Positions 11,575 to 22,497 of a stretch of 64,000 nt of DNA are shown here, one piece after another. The notes under the pieces are model-generated. The model saw only the letters and a list, made by a program, of their open reading frames with translations, had not been told where the DNA came from and ran no database searches. Position numbers and translations under genes: made by a program. Position 1 is the stretch's first letter. Each line of letters opens with the position of its first letter. The stretch comes from Clostridia bacterium (GTDB lineage: Bacteria > Bacillota > Clostridia > Christensenellales > UBA1242): NCBI GenBank assembly GCA_045538455.1, contig JAZSRL010000008.1, forward strand, positions 9,162 through 73,161. Direction: 5' to 3'.

Positions 11575-11608
11575 AAAAAAACCTAAACCGAGATGTTCGA
11601 TTTAGGTT
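11575..11608 (-). terminator. Rho-independent terminator (junction element type 2, copy 2)
   Basis: AACCTAAACCGA-GATGT-TCGATTTAGGTT with a minus-strand T-run. It is positioned to terminate the R-M-like operon and the recombinase remnant. Confidence 0.7.
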
Positions 11609-12024
11609 TCTCTTGGCGGCATGTGGTCTAAATCGTTTGAACTATTTATCAAAACTGTTTCCGCTGTTTGTTTAACAGCGTCGATATCATCAGGGATTTC
11701 TTTTGGGGATAAGTGCGTATCAGAAAAGTTGTATGTTATTATTACTTTCTCGTTATCTACAATAATTTCGCGAATTAAATATCTGACTATCGTTTTTCGA
11801 GCAGAAATAAGTTTCATATCCCCTTTCATTGCAGATGTTAAATATTGTTTAATTTTCTCTGGTGTTAAATATACATAGTTCCTTTGTTTTTCTTGTTCTA
11901 TATCAAATTCATATTGCGAGATAATTGTTTCTAATTCCTTTAAGCGAGTTTTTGTTTGTTCCGTAATTATGGCGGAGCGAAGCGACGCCACTTGTATATA
12001 GACAAGCACACGTTTAACTGCCAA
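11602..12024 (-). pseudogene. C-terminal remnant of a large serine recombinase
   Basis: The translation (LKELETIISQYEFDIEQEK...IVRYLIREIIVDNEKVIITYNF) resembles the coiled-coil and C-terminal end of large serine recombinases. No catalytic N-terminal domain is present. The frame reads through the CCGCCA junction motif. Confidence 0.5.
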
Positions 12025-12070: not shown

Positions 12071-14578
12071 TTAAACTTTTTTCATGTCACTATAAGCGAT
12101 TGTTGTGTCCCAACCACCAACAAGCGCGCCTTCATGCTTATTAATTCCAGAATATGACAAACTACTATCCTCATATCGCCTAAACTGGAAAACTGCTTGA
12201 TTCATGAGTTCTGCATTAAACAATCCTAAACTTGTTAAAAGTTCAAAATCATTAACCTCTAAACCTGTAACTCTTTTAAATAAACCAGGTTCAAGTTGAG
12301 TAATGACATCTTTTAACACTTGTTCACGATAGTCAGTTAGATACATGAAGATAGGAATACGAGTCGCAAACTTAATAAGTTTTTCTTGAATTTGTTTTCT
12401 CTTTGATTTATATTCTTTTTCTTCTTCGGATATAGTTTTCTTTTCTTGTCGCGTTAAATCACGACCTTCATTAGTAGCATCTTTTTTTATTTTTTTTATT
12501 GCGTTAGATTTATTAACTATAATTTCAATATCACTTTGTAAATTAAGATTTCTGAATCCTTCGATACTCATAAGAGCAGTTAAAGCTCTCTCATTATTTA
12601 ATAATCTTTCCAATGTAATATTATCAACATTTACAAGACAAGCACTTTCCCATCGGCGAGCAAGTAAAGTTGCCGTTGTTCCACTAGTTGCAATATCCAA
12701 AAGTTCACCCGGACTAATATTTTTCATCGTCATGCCATCGTATGACAAAACTGGCAAGAACTGAATAAACTCAGCAACTTTTCTTTCTGGATTTATGTCA
12801 TCAATGTTCAAACGACAAGAATATTCTTCAATTTGTCTTAAAGCTCTATCAGGTGCAAAATCAAATATATAACATTCTTTTTTAATAATCTCATCTTCAT
12901 TGGGATTTAATCCAGTTGGATTTTTTAACACCCACGGTGATTGAACCCTAAATGCTGCCTGAAAGTATGATTCAGGACTAGAAAGATTGCGTAACATAAA
13001 AATACCCGTCCAAGGCTTAACTGTTACTCCTGTTGTTAGTTTACCACAAGACAATGTAATTGTTTTTGTATTAAGCGGATCACTTGTCATTGCTTTTTTT
13101 ACAGGATCTAACGCTGCAAGCCCCACCCCAGCCCTAGTTCCAGCAGATACGATAATTTTATATTCTTGATAAAATAAGTTTTGTCTTTCTTGCAATAAAT
13201 TCGCCATTGCATAACAACTCGCAACATTCGGCAAAAACCAAAAAGTATGTTGTAGAACTTCTTGTAAATTTGCCTTGTTAGTTGTGAATGGTAAGTATGC
13301 TTTTTCTGCGCCTTGTTTCAAATTATCAACAGTAGTTTCCAAATAATTACCACGTATCAAGTCAAGCCATTTTTGAACTTCTTCTTTGTAAACGAATTCA
13401 GCAGATTCATATTCGCCTCTTGCCGAAAAAAATGTATTTAAATCAAATTCATTATATTCACCTTTCAAAGCAACTTCTCGAATGCTTTCAGGGAGTTGAT
13501 AAGTCATCAAAACCATTCTCGGCAGACTTGCATATGGATTATTTTCTCCTTGCCAATTTTCTTTTTCTCTCTGTTCATCAGAATATGTCCAGTTATAAAT
13601 TTGTTCTTCAACAAACTCGCCATTAGCAATAGCCCTAAAAGGTGTTCCAGACAAATAAAGATAATACGAAGTTGTTATTGGCATAATTTGCTCAATATCA
13701 CTTTCACTTTGATTGTCGTTAAAAAGTTTGTTTGAAACATCTTTATCCAAGTCTTCTTTTTCAAAAAGATCTTTTGCGTTGTCACGCCAAGCACCAAAAT
13801 GATATTCATCAAAAACAACTAGGTCCCAATTTGTCGCATGTACCCATTCGTTTTTTGGTTTTATCATTCCGTCTTTTAATCCAAGATAATCTTGGAATGA
13901 CCCAAAACAAACGATAGGTTTATTTTTATCTAAATCATCAAACTTGTTTTGCGTATGCCTTGAAATAAATTGCCATCCTTCAAAATCCAAATGAGTATTC
14001 AAATCATTTTCCCAGGAACTTTCAACGGCAGGCTTGAAAGTTAAAATCAACACTCGCTTAAAATTCATTCTTTGTGCCAATTTGTATGTCGTAAAAGTTT
14101 TACCAAACCTCATTTTGGCATTCCACAAAAAGTGCGGAATTATTTTAGAATTTTCTTGTTTTATAGAATTAAAATATTTGGTTGTTTTTTCAATAGCAAG
14201 TTCTTGCTCTGGTCTAAGTTTAAAGTTTTGAGTTCTGCGTTCTTTATTTTCAATTCTGTTTTTAAGTGTAAAAACAGCACTTTGAACATCTCGAACATCA
14301 CATCTAAACCATTCACCATTGGGGTTATCAAAACCTTGTGCTTTTAATAATCGATGCACATCATGGTCCATAAAATATGAGCCATCTTCTCTCATACTGC
14401 TTTCCGAAAAAACAATTTTATATGGGAGTTCTCCAGGTCTAAGTGTTGGATATTGGTCAGCAACTCTTTGCTCAACATTTGTTGTGGTATATCCAACTTT
14501 AAGAAGACCTTTGTATAACTTATCTTCATAAGCATAAATTTGTGGTTTAATTTGTCGCGGAAAAAATTCTTTATTCAT
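12071..14578 (-). CDS. T5orf172/GIY-YIG-superfamily-like domain fused to an SF2 (ResIII-type) helicase; putative restriction/effector subunit
   Basis: N-terminus: IYAYEDKLYKGLLKVGYTTTNVEQRV...HDVHRLL...GEWFRCDV (T5orf172-like). Helicase motifs: MRFGKTFT (I), VVFDEYHFG (II) and LSGTPF (III). The ATG at 14578 overlaps the upstream stop by 8 nt. Confidence 0.75.
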   Translation of the reverse strand: MNKEFFPRQIKPQIYAYEDKLYKGLLKVGYTTTNVEQRVADQYPTLRPGELPYKIVFSESSMREDGSYFMDHDVHRLLKAQGFDNPNGEWFRCDVRDVQSAVFTLKNRIENKERRTQNFKLRPEQELAIEKTTKYFNSIKQENSKIIPHFLWNAKMRFGKTFTTYKLAQRMNFKRVLILTFKPAVESSWENDLNTHLDFEGWQFISRHTQNKFDDLDKNKPIVCFGSFQDYLGLKDGMIKPKNEWVHATNWDLVVFDEYHFGAWRDNAKDLFEKEDLDKDVSNKLFNDNQSESDIEQIMPITTSYYLYLSGTPFRAIANGEFVEEQIYNWTYSDEQREKENWQGENNPYASLPRMVLMTYQLPESIREVALKGEYNEFDLNTFFSARGEYESAEFVYKEEVQKWLDLIRGNYLETTVDNLKQGAEKAYLPFTTNKANLQEVLQHTFWFLPNVASCYAMANLLQERQNLFYQEYKIIVSAGTRAGVGLAALDPVKKAMTSDPLNTKTITLSCGKLTTGVTVKPWTGIFMLRNLSSPESYFQAAFRVQSPWVLKNPTGLNPNEDEIIKKECYIFDFAPDRALRQIEEYSCRLNIDDINPERKVAEFIQFLPVLSYDGMTMKNISPGELLDIATSGTTATLLARRWESACLVNVDNITLERLLNNERALTALMSIEGFRNLNLQSDIEIIVNKSNAIKKIKKDATNEGRDLTRQEKKTISEEEKEYKSKRKQIQEKLIKFATRIPIFMYLTDYREQVLKDVITQLEPGLFKRVTGLEVNDFELLTSLGLFNAELMNQAVFQFRRYEDSSLSYSGINKHEGALVGGWDTTIAYSDMKKV

Positions 14579-16079
14579 TAACACCTACTTCTGGTCGAAC
14601 CATACTTTCGATAAATGCAATTTCTTCATCAGTTAAGTTGTATTTTTGATAAAGTTCTTTATCAGTCCAAGGTTTTGTAAAGTCCTGCAAAGGAACAAAA
14701 CTATATACTGATTTTGGCGCCATCATAGTATTTTTTTGTAATGTTACTAGAAAATGAAAAAACTTAGTATTTATATAGGACATTAAATTTTTACATTCAC
14801 TTTTAGAATTCATAGGACCAAACACAACATAAGTTTCAGTACAACACGAACCAGGCTCTGAAAAAATAGGTTTTATCCAATCAGTTTTACTATCTCCAGA
14901 ACCTATCGCTCTTGGGACGATAACTTTATTTAAAGTAACCCATTTTTTATTGACCTGTACATCGTCTTCCGAAACATAGCCAACTTGTTGGTTAGCATAA
15001 ACTTTTATACAATTATCAAATTTTTCATTTTTACCTTTGAAATAAGTTCTTAAGCCAAAAGGTCTTTGAGAACTAATCATAAAATCAATAGTCTTTTCTT
15101 TATGTTTTTTTATTTTTCTTAAAATTGAAATAGAATTGTTATACCTAACAAAAACCTTACATCCATCTTCTAGTAAATACCTGTTCATTGATGATATAAC
15201 TTTATCTTCTATATGAGTATTAACACTACAGATACCTTCATTGTCCCGATCCCAAAGGAAATAACAAACACCACCTTTAATTTCTACACCAGAGAAACAA
15301 TCTGAAGAATTCAAATAATCATGCAAAATTCGAATCCTAGTATCTCTAAGCATTTCATCCCTAAAAGAGTCTAGGTTTCGACCTCCAGCAAACCAACGAG
15401 ATGGAATAATCATAGTCAAATATCTTGGATTTAGTTTTTTTGCTTGTTGCACAAAATAATTATATACGGGTATTGCACTCGCTTGTGCACCACCATCGCT
15501 TAACTGATATGGTGGATTTCCTATGATTACATCAAATTTCATATTAAATATTTCCTCCGGATTATAAGTGTGTATAAATTCATAAGCATGGACTTCCATG
15601 TCTTTTCTGCCATAAGTATTTACATTTTGTGAAACCCCACAATACTCACACCGAAAATCATCATCCCAACTATGTTGTAAGTTTGTGAACTTTATATTTC
15701 CATTCTCATTGTTAAACTTCTCTACAATCGAATATTTTCCATTCGCCGTTTTGGAGCAATACAAACTACGCCTTGATAATGAAGATGTCAGTTTAGTTAT
15801 CGCAATGCCATATAGTTGATTTGTAAAAATGTGGTTAATCCTTGTTTGTAAATCAGGCATATCCTTTTCTAATCCAACTAATAGTCTTTTTGCTATTTCC
15901 CTTAAAAAGACACCACTCTTGCAACACGGGTCTAAAAACTTTGAATCTTTATTTTGGAACAAATCTTGTGGCAATAAATCCAGCATTTGATTAACAATTT
16001 TAGGTGAAGTAAAAACTTCATCAGAAGATAAATTTGCTAGACAGCTCAACACGTCTGGATTATGTGTTTCTTTAACCAT
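14571..16079 (-). CDS. Eco57I-like gamma-class N6-adenine DNA methyltransferase with a C-terminal target-recognition region
   Basis: DEVFTSPKIV (motif X), FLDPCCKSGVFL (motif I), LYGIAI, and FDVIIGNPPYQ (motif IV). About 250 aa follow the catalytic core. Confidence 0.85.
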   Translation of the reverse strand: MVKETHNPDVLSCLANLSSDEVFTSPKIVNQMLDLLPQDLFQNKDSKFLDPCCKSGVFLREIAKRLLVGLEKDMPDLQTRINHIFTNQLYGIAITKLTSSLSRRSLYCSKTANGKYSIVEKFNNENGNIKFTNLQHSWDDDFRCEYCGVSQNVNTYGRKDMEVHAYEFIHTYNPEEIFNMKFDVIIGNPPYQLSDGGAQASAIPVYNYFVQQAKKLNPRYLTMIIPSRWFAGGRNLDSFRDEMLRDTRIRILHDYLNSSDCFSGVEIKGGVCYFLWDRDNEGICSVNTHIEDKVISSMNRYLLEDGCKVFVRYNNSISILRKIKKHKEKTIDFMISSQRPFGLRTYFKGKNEKFDNCIKVYANQQVGYVSEDDVQVNKKWVTLNKVIVPRAIGSGDSKTDWIKPIFSEPGSCCTETYVVFGPMNSKSECKNLMSYINTKFFHFLVTLQKNTMMAPKSVYSFVPLQDFTKPWTDKELYQKYNLTDEEIAFIESMVRPEVGVNE

Positions 16080-16715
16080 TTACATCCTCCTCTTTTAGGT
16101 TTAAGTAATGAACTAGTGGATAAGTTTTAATTGGCTTATCAACAAAGTCCCCTAAAATTTCTGATTGGTGTTTTCTTTTTTCTTGTACGGTAACAAGTTG
16201 CTCATACATAAAATCTCGCCGCTGTACTAAATTTCCTTTCACAAACGACCACTCAGCAAAAACTAATGGGTTACCGTCAACTGCCTTCATTGATAACGCA
16301 TCACCACATAAAATGTTTTTGAATAGAATAAATCTGACAATCTCTAAATAATCTTCTTTGATATTTTTTTTAAAAATACTCTTATAGCAATCTAAAAACA
16401 TACCATATAACCGATTAATACACTCTTCAACGTTATCCTGTAAAATATCAACTCCGTAAACCGACATCACTGCTATCAAACCATTCTTCTCATATTCCCA
16501 TTGACTCTTTTTATATCTTGCTTTAACTACTTCAAGTTTTCTTCGGAGTATTTCAATTAAAAAATTTCCATTACCACAAGCAGGCTCTAAAAAACGGCTA
16601 TCAATTCTTTCAGTTTCTTGCTTTACTAGGTCAAGCATTGCATTGACTTCACGTTCATTTGTGAACACTTCGCCATGATCTACAACTCTTTTTTTTGACC
16701 TAACTTGTGCCGACA
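16072..16715 (-). CDS. Methyltransferase-like protein lacking the (D/N)PPY catalytic motif (SAM-binding N-terminal half only)
   Basis: GEVFTNEREV (motif X), FLEPACGNGNFL (motif I), VYGVDI and NILCGDAL, but no NPPY before the stop. An AAGGAGA RBS precedes the ATG at 16715. There is an 8-nt overlap with the next gene. Confidence 0.65.
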
Positions 16716-16761
16716 TTTTTCTCCTTTGTTCACACCACAAGTTTTAGAAAATTTAATTTAC

Positions 16762-16901
16762 AAAGGTGTACCTTTACGGAATTCAAAAAAAAAGAAAAAA
16801 AGATAATACAAAAAACGACAATATGTGTTACACTGTTATTATAGATAAATAAAACACTAGAATTTTTAGTTAGAATTAAAATTCTATAAAGGTACACCTT
16901 T
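16762..16901. promoter_or_regulatory. Candidate invertible DNA segment bounded by 15-bp perfect inverted repeats (hix-like sites), carrying a promoter-like element
   Basis: AAAGGTGTACCTTTA (16762-16776) and TAAAGGTACACCTTT (16887-16901) are exact reverse complements. Each site is AAAGGT-NN-ACCTTT with an asymmetric core, GT in one and AC in the other. Inside the segment is GACA, 16 bp of spacer, then TGtTATTAT (16817-16842, + strand). Confidence 0.6.
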
Positions 16902-16907
16902 ATAAAA

Positions 16908-16937
16908 GCCCCACTCTATCTTGGTGAGGCTTTTTTT
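16908..16937 (+). terminator. Rho-independent terminator between the invertible segment and the invertase promoter
   Basis: GCCCCAC...GTGAGGC stem with one mismatch, followed by T7. Confidence 0.55.
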
Positions 16938-16945
16938 GTTATAAT
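16937..16945 (+). promoter_or_regulatory. Extended -10 promoter element of the invertase gene
   Basis: TGTTATAAT (TGnTATAAT) lies 19 nt upstream of the GAGGT RBS and the ATG at 16964. Confidence 0.5.
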
Positions 16946-16963
16946 CACTCGAGGTAAAAACAA

Positions 16964-17557
16964 ATGAAATATGGATATATTAGAGTTAGTACAAAAGAAC
17001 AAAACATTGATCGCCAACTTATAGAGATGCATGACTATGGTATTAGTGATGAAAACATCTATATTGACAAACAAAGTGGAAAAGACTTTAATCGTGTTAA
17101 TTATCAACTCTTAAAAAATAAAATTCAACCTGGCGATTTAATTGTCATCAAAAGTATTGACCGTCTAGGGAGAAATTATGATATGATCATAGACGAATGG
17201 AAAGATATTGTTAATCGTTGTAACAGCGACATTCTAGTTTTAGACATGCCACTACTAGACACTCGAACCGAAGGTAAAAATTTAGTCGGTAAATTTATTA
17301 GCAATATCGTGCTTGAAATTTTATCTTTTGTTGCAGAAAATGAACGTGATAACATTAGGAAACGCCAAGCTGAAGGCATACGGATCGCAAAACTACAAGG
17401 AAAACATTTAGGACGTCCCAAATATGTTTTACCCTCAAATTATAATGAAATAATTTTACTTTATGAAAATAAATCAATTTCACTTATTGAAACATTAACA
17501 AGATTAAAAATGAATAAATCAACTTTCTATAAATATCGTAAATTACAAAAAGTTTGA
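16964..17557 (+). CDS. Small serine recombinase (Hin/Gin/Pin-type DNA invertase or resolvase)
   Basis: MKYGYIRVSTKEQNIDRQ (catalytic Ser region), SIDRLGRN, ERDNIRKRQAEGI, and a C-terminal HTH-like tail. 197 aa. Confidence 0.9.
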   Translation: MKYGYIRVSTKEQNIDRQLIEMHDYGISDENIYIDKQSGKDFNRVNYQLLKNKIQPGDLIVIKSIDRLGRNYDMIIDEWKDIVNRCNSDILVLDMPLLDTRTEGKNLVGKFISNIVLEILSFVAENERDNIRKRQAEGIRIAKLQGKHLGRPKYVLPSNYNEIILLYENKSISLIETLTRLKMNKSTFYKYRKLQKV

Positions 17558-17578: not shown

Positions 17579-18517
17579 CTACTTAAACTTTCGCCAGCAC
17601 TTTTCTTTTAAGAATAATTTAATTGTGCTAACATCTTCATCTTCGTAATATTCTACTAAAAGTTTTTTGAATTCGGGGACTTCTTTCTCCGGAATAACAA
17701 TTAAACCTTCACCTTGTGCAATCATAAAGTGGTTTGTAAATATTATTGAAGCCCTTTTATTGCCGTCATTAAAAATTTGCGTTTTCATACAATACAAGCA
17801 CAATTCAATTGCTTTATCAATATTTGAAAGATTGCTTGAAATGATATTGATTATTTTTTCTTTAACATCAATTTCGTTTGGGATTGGTGGAACATAACTT
17901 GAACCACCGATTGCAACCGGTACACCTCTAACTCTACCGCCTTCTTCGTAGAAACCTTCATTAACAAGTTTAGCAATATACGAAAGAATATAAAAGTCTG
18001 TTTGTGCTTGAATCACATCTTTATCCAAAATGAACTCCCAAGCATGTTTAAGATTAAGAATTTTTTGAACATCGCTTGGTCGCATACCCGTAACCTTACC
18101 ATTGTCAATAATAGTTTCCGTTTGCGGGAAAGTCGTTGCAACGCCCTCTAACATTGCTTGGTCATAAATATTGGCTTTCATATTGGCTCTAGCAAAGTCT
18201 AAATTTAATTCAACTTCAGGAGAAAGATTATTTGAGACATAATTAAGTAGAGCAAGTTCTTTTTCAATTTGTCTAATTGATTTTTGCAATTCTCTTGCTT
18301 CTTTTGAGTATCTTAAAAGTGTTTGATATAACTCGTCCGAAAACTTATCCACATATTGAGATGTTAACCTACCAAGTTCTCTTTTACGAATATACAAATA
18401 TTTACCACTTTTATTTTCTTTAATTTCAGGAGTGCCTGTATAAGGGATTAAACTTAATCTTGTTTGTAAATCGGCTTTTTTTCTCAATAGTTCTTGAATA
18501 TTATTGAAATTACTCAT
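17579..18517 (-). CDS. Fic/Doc-family-like protein with a degenerate active-site motif
   Basis: The C-terminal region has QIFNDGNKRAS where Fic/Doc proteins have HxFx(D/E)(G/A)N(G/K)R. The catalytic His position is Gln. Confidence 0.55.
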   Translation of the reverse strand: MSNFNNIQELLRKKADLQTRLSLIPYTGTPEIKENKSGKYLYIRKRELGRLTSQYVDKFSDELYQTLLRYSKEARELQKSIRQIEKELALLNYVSNNLSPEVELNLDFARANMKANIYDQAMLEGVATTFPQTETIIDNGKVTGMRPSDVQKILNLKHAWEFILDKDVIQAQTDFYILSYIAKLVNEGFYEEGGRVRGVPVAIGGSSYVPPIPNEIDVKEKIINIISSNLSNIDKAIELCLYCMKTQIFNDGNKRASIIFTNHFMIAQGEGLIVIPEKEVPEFKKLLVEYYEDEDVSTIKLFLKEKCWRKFK

Positions 18518-18767
18518 TTTAACGCTCCTTTTTTTAGGGAATATTTTTATATATAAATATATATAATTGTTCCCTGAAAGTCAATATTTTACTGTCATCA
18601 ATTTTCTAGTAAACATATCAAAAACTCGAACTTAAAAATTTCAGGCTCACCAAAAACATTTCAGCGATACACAGGTGAATAACAATTAAACAAACAAAAC
18701 CCGCTAAACAGTTTAATTTTTATTCACAAAAATATTCAAAACTGAACTATTGTTTAATTTCTAAAAT

Positions 18768-18848
18768 CACTCCAAAATAGTCTTGGGTGTAAAAAATATT
18801 ATTCAACAAACTGCAGTAGTTCTTATTATTTACTTTTGGTGGGAAGAC
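18768..18848 (+). repeat. Junction repeat copy C (full-length copy of the tRNA-Ser(UGA) 3' end and flank)
   Basis: CCAAAATAGTCTTGGGTGTAAAA..TTATTCAACAAACTG...TAGTTC.TATTATTT.CTTTTGG.GG aligns with 22185-22263. By eye I count about nine substitutions and one 1-nt indel. Confidence 0.85.
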
Positions 18849-18910
18849 CGCTATCCAATCCTAACACTAAAATCTACATTGGTGCTAGGTGGATTAAACT
18901 ATTTGTTTAT

Positions 18911-21244
18911 TTATAAATATCTATCTATTAAAGAAAGCTGAAATTCATTTAAATTTTCAATGTTTTTATTAAAAACAATTTCTTGTTCATCAATTTTATC
19001 AATACATTTTATTAACCATTCAATGTCTTCAAAACTAAACCCATATTTTAATAGCCATATTTCTGTTTCGTCATCGGTTCCATATTTTACATAATTAGAC
19101 ATTGTTAAAGCCAATTCATTATTTGTTCTTAGATAATATTGATAGAAACAAGCATAAAACACATCGCTTAGTTTAAAATTAATTAACTTATCTAAAAAAT
19201 CATAAGTATCATATACAACTCTATCGTAGTCTATCATGGTTGCAAGACTTCTTCCAAATAAACTATATCGTTTAAGTTTTTTATTAGGTAAATCATTGTA
19301 TCCTGTAAAATACTCTGCTTGTAGATAACTTAAATTTTTTTCGTAAATTTTTTTTACTAAAGAATCTTTTTCAACCTTAATTTTTTTTATCAATTCATTT
19401 TTTTGTTTTTTTCTTGTCACTTGTGCATATCTAATATTGCAAATAGTTTTAAAGGTGCGATTATTAATTTGCCACAAAATAATTCTGATTGCTGATTTTA
19501 GAACATCATTTTCTGCAGGCTCTAATTTTCTATTAAGATAATGTTCATATAATTTTGTAAATCCATCATAAATCAAAGGTTGGGTTCTAGTGTCGTTATT
19601 AATATTTTCGTCAGGAATTATTTTATTTTCTATAAAAACATTTGACAAAATATTTTCTATAACATGATTTAGTTTGTCTTCATTTAATCTTGAAACTTCT
19701 TGATTTGTTAAGTTATATTCGTCAGAAAAAGTTCCTTCTTTAATGGCTTTTTTGAAATCTCTATAGTCGTCATTTAAAACATCTTTATCTAAGTTAGACA
19801 CATTATCGAGATTATTAGTTCCCAATAATACATTTCTTAATTGACTCATGTTGTTGTTTTTAACTATTACATATCCAAAATCAAATTTGTTAACTGCGGT
19901 AGAACGACCAGCCCGTCCAATTAAATTTTTAATTGCTAAGGGCTCGCTTTCTTGAAATGTATTTATATAAACTATATCAAAAGGCATGTTTATGCCTTGC
20001 TCTAGTGTTGATGTTGCAAAACATATTTTACAATAATTTAGATTTGTGAATTTTTCTAACAATTGACGAACCCTTAACGGCATTGAACCATGATGAACAA
20101 CAATACCACGATACAACATTTCAATCATTAAAGAATTATACTCATCATTTTCTTTGTTTGTTGCTCCTATATACTTTTTAATTTCTTCTATAATATTTTT
20201 TGCATTGTCATCGTCAAGCTCATTACATAATTTTATATATTTTGCAAATTCTGTGAAAACATCTTTGTTATAAATACTAGACTTTGTTGTATAAACAAGA
20301 ATCGAACCACCATTTTTTATAACATCGAAAATGATATCTTTAGAACAAGGAGTTTTTATGCCTCCCATAATTTCTTTATTAATACCAAAATAATAAAAGG
20401 AGTTTTCGACATGTGATACAAAAATTTGTCCAACGTTTCTTTGTTCGTATTTAACGGCATCATAAGATTCTTTTATTAAATTATTTTTTTCTAATTGCGC
20501 TATTGGATTATTTATAAATGGATGGGCAAAAATAATTTTTGTGTTTGGAAAATTTGAGTTTATTCGTCTCACAATACTATCAAAATAAATACCTCTTTGC
20601 GATTCTTCGTTTCCTATTTGAGCTTCATCAAATAGAACTAACTCTATGTTAAAATTGTCTTTTTGTTTAAATAAATCTTTACATCTTTCAGGCGTGACAA
20701 TAAAGATTGAACGGGTTGCTTTTTTAATATTAATTTTTTCTATAAAAGTGAGAATGTTTATTGATTTATCAGTAATCATATTACAAATTTTTTCATAATA
20801 CTCATTTATTAATGCTCTAGATGGAACAATAACTACTACATCATTGGTTGCATTGGTTAACAAATATCTAAATGTAAAAGATTTTCCAGTACTAGTTGGT
20901 GCTGAAAAACTAAAAATTTGATTGTTTTTTATTTTTTCAATAATGTCTGCCTGAAGTGGTGTGTAATTATCACCTAATTGTTGAAATATATGTGTATTAT
21001 ATAAATCAAATATTTTTGCTTTTAAAGATTTGTATTTTGGTTTTTTATAAAATATACCCATTATTTCAATTATATCTTGTTCTATTTCATTAAACTTTTC
21101 TGCTTGAAACAATTTTAAATAAGATATTATTTCCATTAAAGTGTTATCTGTTGGCCCATTTTCATATAATTGGTTAATAGTGTAATTTATAATATTATCA
21201 ACATCTTCATTATTTATTATTTTTTTAATTATTTCAGTCATCAT
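18911..21244 (-). CDS. hamB: Hachiman HamB-like SF2 (DExH-type) helicase
   Basis: 777 aa with SAPTSTGKSF (Walker A), VLFDEAQ (motif II) and IGRAGRS (motif VI). There is a 4-nt ATGA overlap with the upstream DUF1837-like gene. Confidence 0.75.
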   Translation of the reverse strand: MMTEIIKKIINNEDVDNIINYTINQLYENGPTDNTLMEIISYLKLFQAEKFNEIEQDIIEIMGIFYKKPKYKSLKAKIFDLYNTHIFQQLGDNYTPLQADIIEKIKNNQIFSFSAPTSTGKSFTFRYLLTNATNDVVVIVPSRALINEYYEKICNMITDKSINILTFIEKINIKKATRSIFIVTPERCKDLFKQKDNFNIELVLFDEAQIGNEESQRGIYFDSIVRRINSNFPNTKIIFAHPFINNPIAQLEKNNLIKESYDAVKYEQRNVGQIFVSHVENSFYYFGINKEIMGGIKTPCSKDIIFDVIKNGGSILVYTTKSSIYNKDVFTEFAKYIKLCNELDDDNAKNIIEEIKKYIGATNKENDEYNSLMIEMLYRGIVVHHGSMPLRVRQLLEKFTNLNYCKICFATSTLEQGINMPFDIVYINTFQESEPLAIKNLIGRAGRSTAVNKFDFGYVIVKNNNMSQLRNVLLGTNNLDNVSNLDKDVLNDDYRDFKKAIKEGTFSDEYNLTNQEVSRLNEDKLNHVIENILSNVFIENKIIPDENINNDTRTQPLIYDGFTKLYEHYLNRKLEPAENDVLKSAIRIILWQINNRTFKTICNIRYAQVTRKKQKNELIKKIKVEKDSLVKKIYEKNLSYLQAEYFTGYNDLPNKKLKRYSLFGRSLATMIDYDRVVYDTYDFLDKLINFKLSDVFYACFYQYYLRTNNELALTMSNYVKYGTDDETEIWLLKYGFSFEDIEWLIKCIDKIDEQEIVFNKNIENLNEFQLSLIDRYL

Positions 21245-21927
21245 ATGTTTACCGCCACAATTAAAAGTTCTTCATATTGTAATAAACTTATGAAGTTCTG
21301 ATTTCTTTTTATGTTTTTTACCAATTCTTCTGTGGGGATTTGTTTTGCAGCAAAACCTATAGCAAATCCCTTTTCGCCAAGAGTTGCTTTGTTTAAGCTT
21401 GTTTCATCGCAAAATTCATCAATTAATTTTAAATCTGCAATATCTTTTTCTTTGTTAATAAAATCTACTACTTGAGATAATGCTCTACCATAAGAATTTT
21501 GCAAGGACGAGTATTTAGCTTCTCCGAATATTATAGTATTTAAATCATTTACTGTAAAAAAATCAAATCCTGGATTGCCTGAAATTTTTCTTCCTAACAA
21601 TTCCGCAAGAGGGATATCTAAATAGTTTAGATTATTAATTATGCTTTTACGCGATATCTCAGACACCACATACTCTCCCGTATCTTCAGTAAGAGGGTCA
21701 TTTAGATTATCACGTAATTGTTTTGATAGTTTGTCTGCTGTTGGTTTTGCTCTTGCTAAAAAACTTTGTTTAGTGTAAATTTTATCAAAATTATTTATCC
21801 ATGACATATCATTTAATGTTTGAATTATATTTAGAATTGTATTATTTAAATCATCAATTTCAACTCTAATGAATGTCACCCTTATACATTCATCTACTTC
21901 GATTGGGAAATTTTCAATTATTTTCAT
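21241..21927 (-). CDS. hamA: Hachiman HamA-like (DUF1837-type) putative PD-(D/E)xK nuclease
   Basis: 228 aa with GFDFF...IIFGEAKYSS (a D...ExK pattern). Its size and its position immediately upstream of the helicase match the Hachiman architecture. Confidence 0.65.
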   Translation of the reverse strand: MKIIENFPIEVDECIRVTFIRVEIDDLNNTILNIIQTLNDMSWINNFDKIYTKQSFLARAKPTADKLSKQLRDNLNDPLTEDTGEYVVSEISRKSIINNLNYLDIPLAELLGRKISGNPGFDFFTVNDLNTIIFGEAKYSSLQNSYGRALSQVVDFINKEKDIADLKLIDEFCDETSLNKATLGEKGFAIGFAAKQIPTEELVKNIKRNQNFISLLQYEELLIVAVNI

Positions 21928-22184: not shown

Positions 22185-22263
22185 CACCCCAAAATAGTCT
22201 TGGGTGTAAAAGACGTTATTCAACAAACTGTCATAGTTCGTATTATTTGCTTTTGGCGGAAGG
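22185..22263 (+). repeat. Junction repeat copy D (native tRNA-Ser(UGA) 3' end plus downstream flank)
   Basis: Reference copy. It overlaps the last ~10 nt of the tRNA. Confidence 0.85.
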
Positions 22264-22341
22264 AGAGAGATTCGAACTCCCGGACCCTCGCAGGTCGCCT
22301 GTTTTCAAGACAGGTGCATTAGACCACTCTGCCATCCTTCC
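22254..22341 (-). tRNA. tRNA-Ser (anticodon UGA)
   Basis: The reverse complement GGAAGGATGGCAGAGTGGTC...CCTGTCTTGAAAACAGG...GGGAGTTCGAATCTCTCTCCTTCCGCCA folds as a cloverleaf with a long variable arm. CCA is encoded. Confidence 0.92.
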
Positions 22342-22409
22342 AACAATTTATTATAAATCATTCACAAATATTTTACAAGTACAAAATATCATAGTAAACT
22401 ATCCTGTTT

Positions 22410-22497
22410 GGAAGAGTCGCATAGTGGTCGAGTGCGCTCGCTTGGAAAGCGAGTTTGGTGCAAGCCAACGCAGGTTCAAATCCTGTCTCTTCCGCCA
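22410..22497 (+). tRNA. tRNA-Ser (anticodon GGA)
   Basis: GGAAGAGTCGCATAGTGGTCGAG...CTCGCTTGGAAAGCGAG...GCAGGTTCAAATCCTGTCTCTTCCGCCA, with a long variable arm and encoded CCA. Confidence 0.92.

What the first reader, a model, noticed from the sequence alone, without database searches (positions are those of the whole stretch)
16741..16963. Candidate invertible promoter switch between a Hin-type serine invertase and an R-M-like operon
Seen directly: AAAGGTGTACCTTTA (16762-16776) and TAAAGGTACACCTTT (16887-16901) are exact inverted repeats. Each site is itself a near-palindrome, AAAGGT-NN-ACCTTT, with an asymmetric central dinucleotide (GT in one, AC in the other). That is the layout of hix/gix crossover sites used by small serine invertases. 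The adjacent gene (16964-17557) encodes such an enzyme (YIRVSTKEQ catalytic region, C-terminal HTH). The ~110-bp enclosed segment contains GACA, 16 bp, then TGtTATTAT on the + strand (16817-16842). In the assembled orientation this fires away from the R-M-like operon and straight into a terminator hairpin (16908-16937). That hairpin precedes the invertase's own TGTTATAAT promoter. After inversion the same element would sit roughly 100 nt upstream of the operon ATG at 16715. I see no convincing promoter in the 46 bp between that ATG and the left repeat. Inference: an ON/OFF phase switch for a defence/methylation operon, captured here in the OFF orientation.
Basis: partly seen in the sequence, partly recalled or inferred. 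Interest (0 to 1): 0.8.

Follow-up and report, generated by a model that had tools for sequence, protein, structure and literature searches.

The report
Invertible promoter switch for restriction-modification operon
A roughly 125-bp DNA segment carrying a promoter sits between two inverted recombination sites next to its own small serine recombinase, and most likely flips to turn a restriction-modification (anti-phage/methylation) operon on or off; this is a well-supported new example of a known kind of switch.

Summary
AAAGGTGTACCTTTA (16762-16776) and its exact reverse complement (16887-16901) are the only such pair in the 64-kb window. They lie between a divergent R-M-like operon and a small serine recombinase gene.

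Recombinases 71-77% identical keep the same layout: target gene, site, 110-185-bp segment with an extended -10 promoter, site, terminator, own promoter, recombinase. In four independent homologue groups, contigs with identical flanks carry the segment in both orientations. One group is the orthologous operon. A half-site mismatch that moves with the segment places the crossover at or next to the central dinucleotide. That dinucleotide covaries between partner sites (GT/AC, TT/AA, CT/AG).

The window's promoter faces the recombinase and a terminator, so the operon is probably OFF.

Corrections:
- The enzyme is closer to Sin/Tn3 resolvases than to Gin, the only Hin/Gin-group invertase among the PDB matches.
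- The operon ATG is at 16716.
- A weaker opposite-strand promoter-like match exists.

In this clade the cassette is attached to at least five different R-M architectures. Verdict: new member of a known kind (inverton).

The parts
12071..14584 (-). Third operon gene, 837 aa. It has a T5orf172 domain (putative nuclease) plus a ResIII-type SF2 helicase and is the putative restriction/translocase subunit.
   Evidence: Pfam T5orf172 2.4e-10 and ResIII 7.7e-07. Matches positions 151-800 of PADLOC REase_MTase_IIG PDLC03626 at 1.8e-35. 94.7% identical to the 835-aa protein of the orthologous cassette L199.
14571..16079 (-). Second operon gene, 502 aa. It is an Eco57I-type N6-adenine DNA methyltransferase (IIGNPPYQ) with a C-terminal region that is probably the target-recognition part.
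   Evidence: Pfam Eco57I 2.3e-36. PADLOC MTase_II PDLC03375 6.1e-61 and PDLC03626 positions 863-1356. 67.5% identical to L199's 499-aa protein.
16072..16716 (-). First operon gene, 214 aa. It is a small protein resembling an AdoMet-binding methyltransferase N-domain (EPACGNGNFL motif, no NPPY). Its stop overlaps the start of the next gene by 8 nt. A Shine-Dalgarno AAGGAG lies at 16721-16726.
   Evidence: Weak MmeI_Mtase and MTase_II matches. Hundreds of stand-alone homologues of 209-222 aa at 74-87% identity, so it is a real gene and not a fragment. 85% identical to L199's 215-aa protein. ATG position.
16756..16781 (.). Left recombination site (IRL). The 14-bp core AAAGGT-GT-ACCTTT is at 16762-16775 and the central dinucleotide GT at 16768-16769. 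The 26-bp extent (12-bp half-sites) is inferred.
   Evidence: Sequence. Conserved core in homologous loci. The crossover lies inside the core in homologues.
16770..16893 (.). Invertible segment between the two central dinucleotides, about 124 bp. It is A-rich upstream of the promoter.
   Evidence: Bounded by the two sites. Homologous segments of 110-185 bp are found in both orientations.
16815..16842 (+). Switch promoter: ACGACA, 16 nt, TGtTATTAT (-10 at 16837-16842). A second extended -10-like TGtTACACT at 16826-16834 occupies the position homologous to the orthologues' TGtTATAAT. Both face the recombinase in the assembled state.
   Evidence: Promoter scan. Best-scoring promoter per strand. 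MAFFT alignment A1 with orthologous switches.
16803..16831 (-). Weaker opposite-strand promoter-like match, GTAACA-17-TATTAT, with no TG extension. It points at the operon in the assembled orientation.
   Evidence: 9/12. It scores lower than the plus-strand element. Its function is unknown.
16882..16907 (.). Right recombination site (IRR). The core AAAGGT-AC-ACCTTT is at 16888-16901 and the central dinucleotide AC at 16894-16895.
   Evidence: The conserved position, about 60-90 nt upstream of the recombinase start, is seen in most homologues of this clade.
16904..16937 (+). Insulating intrinsic terminator: an AAAGCCCCAC...GTGAGGCTTT hairpin plus a T7 run.
   Evidence: RNA fold -11.7 kcal/mol, z = -2.65. 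A hairpin plus T-run occupies the same place in L001, L002, L004, L082, L092, L179, L189 and L199.
16937..16945 (+). The recombinase's own extended -10 promoter, TGtTATAAT, followed by the ribosome-binding site GAGG at 16951-16954.
   Evidence: Sequence. TGgTATAAT or TGATATAAT is conserved at this position in homologues.
16964..17557 (+). Small serine recombinase, 197 aa (YIRVSTKEQ nucleophile motif, DRLGR), the presumed invertase.
   Evidence: PF00239 1.1e-24 and HTH_7 8.9e-04. Nearest solved structures are Sin/Bin3, Tn3 and gamma-delta resolvases, then Gin.

Best explanation
This is an inverton: a promoter-carrying segment of about 124 bp (16770-16893) bounded by two inverted recombination sites with the core AAAGGT-NN-ACCTTT.

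Proposed mechanism:
- The adjacent small serine recombinase (16964-17557) binds both sites, cuts at the central dinucleotide (GT/AC) and inverts the segment.
- In the assembled orientation the segment's extended -10 promoter (TGtTATTAT, plus strand) fires toward the recombinase gene and is stopped by a terminator hairpin. The divergent operon has no promoter of its own and is OFF. The operon encodes a 214-aa MTase-N-like protein, an Eco57I-type methyltransferase and a T5orf172/helicase restriction subunit.
- After inversion the same promoter sits about 100 nt upstream of the operon ATG (16716) and turns restriction-modification ON.
- The recombinase is expressed from its own constitutive-looking TGtTATAAT promoter outside the segment, so switching can go both ways.

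Shown here: the sites, the recombinase, the layout, and actual inversion of homologous and orthologous cassettes in nature.

Inferred: that this copy inverts, which promoter is used, that the assembled state is OFF, and that the operon restricts and modifies DNA.
For: 1. Exact 15-nt inverted repeats, unique in the window, lie directly upstream of a serine recombinase.

2. The same architecture is kept by recombinases 71-77% identical from other genomes.

3. Both orientations occur between identical flanks in four independent groups:
- P0031: L082/84/85/87/88 versus L083/86/91.
- P0012: L092/95/96 versus L093.
- P0106: L179/184 versus L180/182/183/185.
- P0132, the orthologous operon: seven loci (L199, L200, L202-L205, L207) versus L206.

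4. In the P0012 group a mismatch in the inner half-site (ACATTT) moves from the left site to the right site on inversion. This places the crossover between the outer half-site and that position, that is, at or next to the central dinucleotide.

5. The central dinucleotide covaries between partner sites across loci (GT/AC, TT/AA, CT/AG).

6. Many metagenome contigs end exactly where the two orientations diverge (L090, L094/97/98, L186-188, L195/196/198, L201/208). This is expected if both orientations were present in a sample.

7. Most segments in the clade carry one dominant TGnTATAAT-like promoter. The window's is on the plus strand and aligns with the orthologues' promoter.

8. No promoter-like site lies in the 45 bp between the ATG and the left site.

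9. Orthology of the whole cassette to L199: recombinase 71%, 214-aa protein 85%, MTase 67.5%, helicase 94.7% identity.
Against: - No read-level or second-assembly evidence shows that this particular copy inverts. The only near-identical sequence (L081, recombinase 99% identical, 745 bp) has the same orientation at the right junction.
- A minus-strand promoter-like match in the segment points at the operon in the assembled orientation, so 'OFF' is not proven.
- The window's counterpart of the orthologues' -10 is degenerate (TACACT), and the proposed TATTAT is a neighbouring element.
- Promoters and terminator are consensus or energy predictions only.
- Restriction and methylation activity of the operon is inferred from domains.
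Confidence: 0.8

Rival explanations
1. The segment is a real inverton, but the assembled orientation is ON, or the segment carries promoters in both directions. The minus-strand GTAACA-17-TATTAT would drive the operon as assembled. The other orientation would be OFF, or would change expression level rather than switch it off.
For: The minus-strand match scores 9/12, the same as the plus-strand one, in the simple scan. The window's equivalent of the orthologues' -10 is degenerate.
Against: The plus-strand element has the TG extension typical of the family and scores higher. An A-rich tract lies upstream of it, as an UP element would. Orthologous segments carry a single strong TGtTATAAT on the corresponding strand, and the window aligns in the state that faces the recombinase.
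Confidence: 0.1
2. The two palindromic sites are recombinase-binding subsites of a res-type resolution site (as for Sin or Tn3 resolvase) or autoregulatory operators. The enzyme would resolve multimers or cointegrates or repress its own gene, and nothing would invert.
For: By sequence the protein is nearest Sin/Bin3 and Tn3/gamma-delta resolvases. Res sites lie upstream of resolvase genes and contain several dimer-binding sites (general knowledge of Tn3 and Sin res sites).
Against: In four homologue groups the DNA between the two sites is found precisely reverse-complemented between identical flanks. The central dinucleotides of the two sites are in inverted orientation and covary. No transposase or plasmid context was seen here. 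The neighbours called are the R-M-like operon, a Fic-domain gene and a Hachiman-like helicase.
Confidence: 0.03
3. This copy is a frozen relic. The family is invertible, but here the switch no longer flips, for example because an accessory factor was lost or the shortened 112-bp spacer prevents synapsis.
For: The window's segment is the shortest of the close relatives (112 bp between cores against 143-185 bp). Only one orientation is seen in the two available sequences.
Against: Both 15-nt sites are perfect. The recombinase ORF is intact with catalytic motifs and its own promoter. More distant family members have spacings of 114-127 nt between site starts.
Confidence: 0.06
4. The inverted repeat is a chance feature of AT-rich intergenic DNA.
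For: 5% of Markov shuffles of the window contain an exact 15-nt inverted repeat within 400 nt.
Against: The same core sequence flanks the switch in dozens of homologous loci, and it recombines there.
Confidence: 0.01

Closest known systems
Hin/hix flagellar phase switch of Salmonella, and the Gin/Cin/Pin invertases
   Same: A small serine recombinase is encoded next to the switch. The sites have two inverted half-sites around an asymmetric 2-bp crossover core. Inversion of a promoter-bearing segment gives ON/OFF expression of an adjacent operon.
   Different: The recombinase gene lies outside the invertible segment, whereas hin lies inside. The segment is about 125 bp rather than about 1 kb. 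The site sequence (AAAGGT-NN-ACCTTT) is unrelated to hix/gix. By sequence the protein is much closer to Sin and Tn3 resolvases than to Gin. Fis/enhancer dependence is unknown and was not tested. The target is an R-M operon rather than flagellin.
Mpi and the invertible polysaccharide promoters of Bacteroides fragilis (invertons as catalogued by PhaseFinder and PhaVa)
   Same: A serine recombinase flips short promoter segments flanked by inverted repeats in gut bacteria. Both orientations can be found in metagenomes.
   Different: Mpi acts globally on many distant promoters. Here each recombinase sits beside one switch. The protein scores 54 bits against the Mpi family model, whose cut-off is 272. 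The sites, the host group (contig titles name Mollicutes-like, Christensenellales and other Clostridia MAGs) and the target class differ.
Sin, Bin3, Tn3 and gamma-delta resolvases
   Same: These are the best sequence matches among solved structures (E=4.9e-27 to 1e-17). They share the catalytic domain and C-terminal HTH layout.
   Different: Those enzymes resolve directly repeated res sites with accessory subsites. Here two single sites in inverted orientation recombine with each other to invert DNA.
Phase-variable R-M systems: simple-sequence-repeat switching of mod and Type IIG genes, hsdS shufflons ('epigenetic invertons'), and gene-altering inversions in BREX/DISARM
   Same: Stochastic, reversible variation of restriction-modification within a clonal population. 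A recombinase is often encoded nearby (PMC7672463, PMC9881135, PMC7641763).
   Different: The known inversion systems rearrange coding sequence and change specificity. Here the coding sequences stay intact and a promoter flips, giving whole-operon ON/OFF. Ni et al. (PMC11741434) counted PhaseFinder invertons within 2 kb of R-M systems or orphan MTases as putative epigenetic phase variation. I found no description of this cassette or its site motif in the papers searched.

Membership tests
Small serine recombinases (resolvase/invertase, PF00239) | N-terminal catalytic domain with a serine nucleophile in a YxRVS motif and a conserved DRLGR | tested here: met
   PF00239 E=1.1e-24 over residues 3-147. 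YIRVSTKEQ and IDRLGRN are read directly in the translation.
Small serine recombinases (resolvase/invertase, PF00239) | C-terminal helix-turn-helix DNA-binding domain | tested here: inconclusive
   HTH_7 E=8.9e-04 at 19.8 bits, below the 23.8-bit gathering score. The alignment to Tn3 resolvase runs through the HTH to residue 192.
Hin/Gin/Cin/Pin DNA invertase subfamily | Closest sequence relationship is to Hin/Gin-type invertases | tested here: not met
   Gin (4m6f, 3uj3) gives E=6e-10 to 1e-09. Sin/Bin3 gives 4.9e-27 and Tn3/gamma-delta gives 2e-20 to 1e-17. No full-length Hin sequence was among the matches.
Hin/Gin/Cin/Pin DNA invertase subfamily | Crossover sites made of two inverted half-sites around a 2-bp asymmetric core, with the two sites in inverted orientation | tested here: met
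   AAAGGT-GT-ACCTTT and AAAGGT-AC-ACCTTT. The core covaries between partners. The crossover maps to the core region in homologues. The site sequence itself is unlike hix/gix (comparison from memory).
Hin/Gin/Cin/Pin DNA invertase subfamily | Dependence on a Fis-bound recombinational enhancer | not testable with these tools
No enhancer was identified, and I did not search the window for fis.
Inverton (invertible promoter, in the PhaseFinder sense) | Inverted repeats flank a short intergenic segment next to an invertase gene | tested here: met
Inverton (invertible promoter, in the PhaseFinder sense) | Both orientations of the segment observed | tested here: inconclusive
   Met for homologous cassettes, including the orthologous operon. 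Not observable for this locus: only the window and a 745-bp contig exist, both in the same orientation.
Inverton (invertible promoter, in the PhaseFinder sense) | The segment carries a promoter that drives the flanking gene in one orientation only | tested here: inconclusive
   Consensus promoter on the plus strand with a TG extension, aligned to the orthologues' TGtTATAAT. A weaker opposite-strand match exists. No transcript data.
Mpi family master invertases (NCBIfam NF009949) | Score at or above the curated cut-off of the family model | tested here: not met
   54.2 bits against a cut-off of 272.
Res-site resolution systems (Tn3, Sin) | Recombination between directly repeated res sites, each with accessory subsites, giving deletion or resolution | tested here: not met
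   The two sites are inverted relative to each other and exchange to invert the intervening DNA in homologues.
Restriction-modification system (split, Type IIG/ISP-like helicase-MTase) | N6-adenine methyltransferase with AdoMet-binding and NPPY motifs | tested here: met
   Eco57I domain E=2.3e-36. DPCCKSGVFL and IIGNPPYQ are present in the 502-aa protein.
Restriction-modification system (split, Type IIG/ISP-like helicase-MTase) | Associated nuclease/translocase subunit | tested here: met
   T5orf172 plus ResIII in the 837-aa protein. Together with the MTase it covers PADLOC REase_MTase_IIG PDLC03626.
Restriction-modification system (split, Type IIG/ISP-like helicase-MTase) | Sequence-specific methylation and restriction of unmodified DNA | not testable with these tools
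   Needs a methylome and phage or plasmid restriction assays.

The most novel reading that the evidence does not exclude
The window's switch belongs to a portable 'phase-switch cassette'. The cassette consists of a Sin-like serine invertase, sites inferred to span about 26 bp with the core AAAGGT-NN-ACCTTT, an extended -10 promoter and an insulating terminator. It has been coupled repeatedly to unrelated restriction-modification architectures:
- the split Eco57I-MTase/T5orf172-helicase system;
- Type III Mod;
- HKD-SNF2 helicase systems;
- the classical Type II DpnII cassette;
- EcoRI-like MTase with a Type II REase-like or GmrSD_N/HNH protein.

A sister clade that uses the same kind of site controls cell-envelope genes. 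Whole-operon ON/OFF switching of Type II R-M would require a way to survive OFF-to-ON transitions on an unmethylated genome. One possibility is the methyltransferase-first gene order seen in most of the operons examined. This would make recombinases in defence islands regulators rather than mobility relics. To my knowledge this has not been described as a family.
Probability: 0.4. Interest if true: 0.7.

Novelty: new member of a known kind. Interest (0 to 1): 0.5.

Why it matters
It gives a concrete, testable mechanism for heterogeneous expression of an anti-phage and methylation system in an uncultured, low-GC bacterium whose nearest relatives come from gut and rumen MAGs.

If the operon phase-varies, the population would hold both restricting/methylating and non-restricting/unmethylated cells. 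That affects phage susceptibility, uptake of foreign DNA and possibly gene expression through methylation (a phasevarion).

At family level it offers one answer to why small recombinases sit in defence islands, a question raised explicitly for PinQ (PMC12529663). It also provides a compact set of natural parts (recombinase, short sites, promoter, insulator) whose site specificity appears to be tuned by the central dinucleotide.

The comparative data also show that metagenome contigs often break exactly at these sites, which is a practical warning for assembly and annotation.

Tried and rejected
- An exact-sequence look-up of the window's recombinase found nothing. The 99% relative gave only a 745-bp contig in the same orientation.
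- The genome-contig scan gave no relative above 77% identity and the metagenome-contig scan none above 63%. Orientation polymorphism at this exact locus could therefore not be tested.
- The first Python script for repeat statistics timed out and was rewritten.
- The simple terminator scan found nothing. Folding showed the hairpin has one stem mismatch.
- I suspected the 214-aa first gene was a pseudogene fragment. This was rejected: it is a conserved stand-alone family.
- I guessed that ORF 11602-12024 was a remnant of a large serine recombinase. There is no Pfam support even at E=5, so I dropped it.
- The GC profile shows no sharp island boundary at the switch.
- A literature search for the site motif returned only unrelated primer sequences.
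- Jiang et al. 2019 (PMC6543533) is not held. I could not check whether their catalogue lists this family.
- The extended 44-nt, 75% inverted repeat reported by the repeat finder is not conserved in homologues. It is probably A/T-rich coincidence beyond the inferred ~26-bp site.

Full report
**1. Observation**

The sequence is as described. AAAGGTGTACCTTTA lies at 16762-16776 and its exact reverse complement TAAAGGTACACCTTT at 16887-16901. Each contains a 6+2+6 near-palindrome whose central dinucleotide is asymmetric: GT on the left, AC on the right. AAAGGTNNACCTTT has only these two exact matches in the 64-kb window.

This is the only exact 15-nt inverted repeat with arms no more than 400 nt apart in the window. 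First-order Markov shuffles give a mean of 0.07 per window, and 5% of shuffles have at least one. Taken alone the repeat is only borderline significant. Its context and conservation settle the question.

**2. Anatomy**

To the right lies a 197-aa small serine recombinase (16964-17557). It matches PF00239 at E=1.1e-24 and HTH_7 weakly, and it carries YIRVSTKEQ and DRLGR.

Between the right repeat and this gene there are three elements:
- a hairpin followed by T7 (16904-16937; -11.7 kcal/mol, z = -2.65);
- an extended -10 promoter, TGtTATAAT (16937-16945);
- a ribosome-binding site.

To the left, on the minus strand, an operon starts at ATG 16716 behind a good AAGGAG. The operon has three genes:
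- a 214-aa protein resembling a methyltransferase N-domain;
- a 502-aa Eco57I-type N6-adenine methyltransferase with NPPY;
- an 837-aa protein with T5orf172 and ResIII helicase domains.

The last two together cover a PADLOC 'Type IIG REase-MTase' model. The 214-aa protein is not a fragment. It has hundreds of stand-alone homologues of 209-222 aa at 74-87% identity.

The 45 bp between the ATG and the left repeat contain no promoter-like site. Inside the segment the best promoter is on the plus strand: ACGACA-16-TGtTATTAT at 16815-16842, preceded by an A-rich tract. A weaker minus-strand match without a TG extension also exists, GTAACA-17-TATTAT at 16831-16803.

**3. Comparative evidence that the element inverts**

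The window's own species is almost absent from the collections:
- The exact protein could not be retrieved.
- A 99% relative sits on a 745-bp contig with the same right junction.
- The genome scan gave nothing above 77% identity and the metagenome scan nothing above 63%.

Recombinases 71-77% identical keep the same layout: target gene, site, a 110-185-bp segment with a TGnTATAAT promoter, site, terminator hairpin, own TGgTATAAT-type promoter, recombinase.

In four independent groups, contigs from different samples have identical flanks but exactly reverse-complemented segments:

| Group | One orientation | Other orientation |
|---|---|---|
| P0031 | L082, L084, L085, L087, L088 | L083, L086, L091 |
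| P0012 | L092, L095, L096 | L093 |
| P0106 (core AA/TT) | L179, L184 | L180, L182, L183, L185 |
| P0132 | L199, L200, L202-L205, L207 | L206 |

The P0132 group is the orthologous cassette. Identities to the window are 71% for the recombinase, 85% for the 214-aa protein, 67.5% for the methyltransferase and 94.7% for the helicase.

Three further observations support site-specific crossover at the core:
- In the P0012 group a mismatch in the inner half-site (ACATTT) sits in the left site in one orientation. It appears as AAATGT in the right site in the other orientation. This confines the crossover to the central dinucleotide region.
- Across 81 loci where a site pair was called, the central dinucleotides of the two partners match as reverse complements, whether GT/AC, TT/AA or CT/AG. 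A few weaker AT-rich calls in that list are probably spurious.
- Many contigs end exactly at the base where the two orientations diverge (L090, L094/097/098, L186-188, L195/196/198, L201/208). This is expected when both forms were present in a sample.

**4. Which state is the window in?**

Most segments in the clade have one dominant extended -10 promoter. It is found facing either way in different assemblies.

In the MAFFT alignment, the window's TGTGTTACACT (16824-16834) aligns with the orthologues' TGTGTTATAAT. A second TGtTATTAT follows immediately. Both are on the plus strand.

The window therefore corresponds to the state in which the promoter faces the recombinase. Transcription then runs into the terminator and the operon is left without a promoter. 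After inversion the -10 would lie at about 16821-16826 on the minus strand. The transcription start would be near 16814, giving a leader of about 98 nt. That is similar to the roughly 95-nt leader estimated for the ON-state homologue L083 (my arithmetic).

'OFF' is thus the best reading, but it rests on consensus and homology.

**5. The enzyme**

'Hin-type' is right as a functional analogy and wrong as a family assignment. Matches to solved structures:
- Sin/Bin3: E=4.9e-27.
- Tn3 and gamma-delta resolvases: E=2e-20 to 1e-17.
- Gin: only E=6e-10.

The protein is far below the NCBIfam cut-off for Mpi, at 54 bits against 272. The res-site alternative that this similarity suggests is excluded by the observed inversions.

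**6. Family context**

In the window's clade (recombinases at least about 58% identical, with the switch upstream and divergent), every target I examined is a DNA-modification or restriction operon, but of different kinds:
- Eco57I MTase plus T5orf172/ResIII helicase: window, L001, L093, L189, L199.
- Type III Mod: L002.
- HKD+SNF2 helicase, with DUF4391 recorded in L082: L007, L009, L082.
- The DpnII cassette (DpnM-like and DpnA-like MTases plus DpnII endonuclease): L010.
- EcoRI-like MTase plus a Type II REase-like protein: L099.
- EcoRI-like MTase plus a GmrSD_N/HNH protein: L179.

A more distant clade (50-57% identity) has the same kind of sites, AAA[GAT]GT-NN-AC[CTA]TTT, downstream of the recombinase. 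There the sites face cell-envelope genes: a DltA-like ligase, MBOAT, glycosyltransferases, an acyltransferase and secreted proteins.

**7. Literature**

Promoter inversion by serine or tyrosine recombinases is classical, and thousands of invertons have been catalogued (PMC11868660). Inversions that rewrite R-M, BREX or DISARM genes are known (PMC7672463, PMC9881135).

Ni et al. (PMC11741434) counted PhaseFinder invertons within 2 kb of R-M systems as putative epigenetic phase variation. They report enrichment in Clostridiales.

I found no paper that describes this recombinase clade, its site motif, or promoter-inversion control of whole Type II or Type III R-M operons. The library is incomplete, and Jiang et al. 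2019 could not be read.

**8. Verdict**

The element is a new member of a known kind.

The most interesting part is at family level. It is a compact, apparently portable switch cassette attached to many R-M types. Natural inversion is documented, and the central dinucleotide appears to set which sites can pair.

What is missing is direct evidence for this copy: read-level orientation, the transcription start and the methylome.

Noticed in passing
L016-L178 (for example L078 6608-6781, L017 6614-6765, L051 6640-6792): Recombinases 50-57% identical to the window's carry a pair of related sites (AAARGTGTACYTTT) 114-223 nt apart (start to start), typically 25-60 nt downstream of their stop codon. 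The sites face cell-envelope genes: DltA-like AMP-binding protein, MBOAT, GT1/GT2/GT4 glycosyltransferases, Acyl_transf_3 and secreted proteins. The same type of switch therefore serves surface variation in a sister clade.
   Followed up: partly
L209-L218, for example L213 2072-2436 (inverted repeat 2200-2226 / 2355-2381): A 76%-identical homologue of the 214-aa first gene, followed in L213, L215 and L217 by the same Eco57I-MTase and T5orf172-helicase genes, sits next to a divergent tyrosine recombinase (312 aa) instead of the serine invertase. There is an imperfect 27-nt inverted repeat (78%) in the 363-nt spacer, and several contigs end in this spacer. This may be an analogous switch run by a different recombinase family.
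   Followed up: partly
L199 7139-7909; L213 4645-5205; window 14571-14584: Orthologous cassettes carry an extra, highly variable small gene (140-256 aa; the L199 product's N-terminus looks hydrophobic by eye; no significant Pfam match) between the methyltransferase and the helicase genes. The window lacks it, and the two genes overlap by 14 nt.
   Followed up: partly
window 12071-17557 compared with L199: Divergence within the cassette is mosaic. The helicase/nuclease subunit is 94.7% identical to L199's, the 214-aa protein 85%, the recombinase 71% and the methyltransferase 67.5%. This suggests recombination between cassettes or fast evolution of the specificity-bearing MTase.
   Followed up: no
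window 17579-21927 and 22254-22497: The switch lies in a defence island. A Fic-domain gene (17579-18517) and a Hachiman-like pair follow: a HamB helicase at 18911-21244 (PADLOC E=2.9e-54) and an upstream 228-aa ORF at 21241-21927 with no family match, possibly HamA. The island ends at two divergent tRNA-Ser genes.
   Followed up: partly
L007 5781-6003: In this 63%-identical relative there is no terminator or separate promoter between the right site and the recombinase start. The segment's TGgTATAAT faces the recombinase. Recombinase expression might therefore depend on switch orientation.
   Followed up: no
L128 3617-3769: Both sites of this pair have a symmetric central dinucleotide (AAAAGT-AT-ACTTTT). 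With a palindromic core the sites have no intrinsic polarity, which would be unusual for an inversion-only system.
   Followed up: no
L081 1-51 compared with window 16836-16886: The strain whose recombinase is 99% identical differs from the window at several positions inside the promoter region of the segment (TAATTATAAATATATAAAGC against TTATTATAGATAAATAAAAC). Its contig ends there.
   Followed up: no
L091 compared with L082-L088: The identical recombinase (P0031) and switch are joined to different target genes in different contigs: an SNF2-type helicase in L082-L088, and a gene starting MSGQPDIDI, like the Eco57I-type MTases, in L091. This is consistent with the recombinase-switch unit moving between R-M operons.
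   Followed up: no
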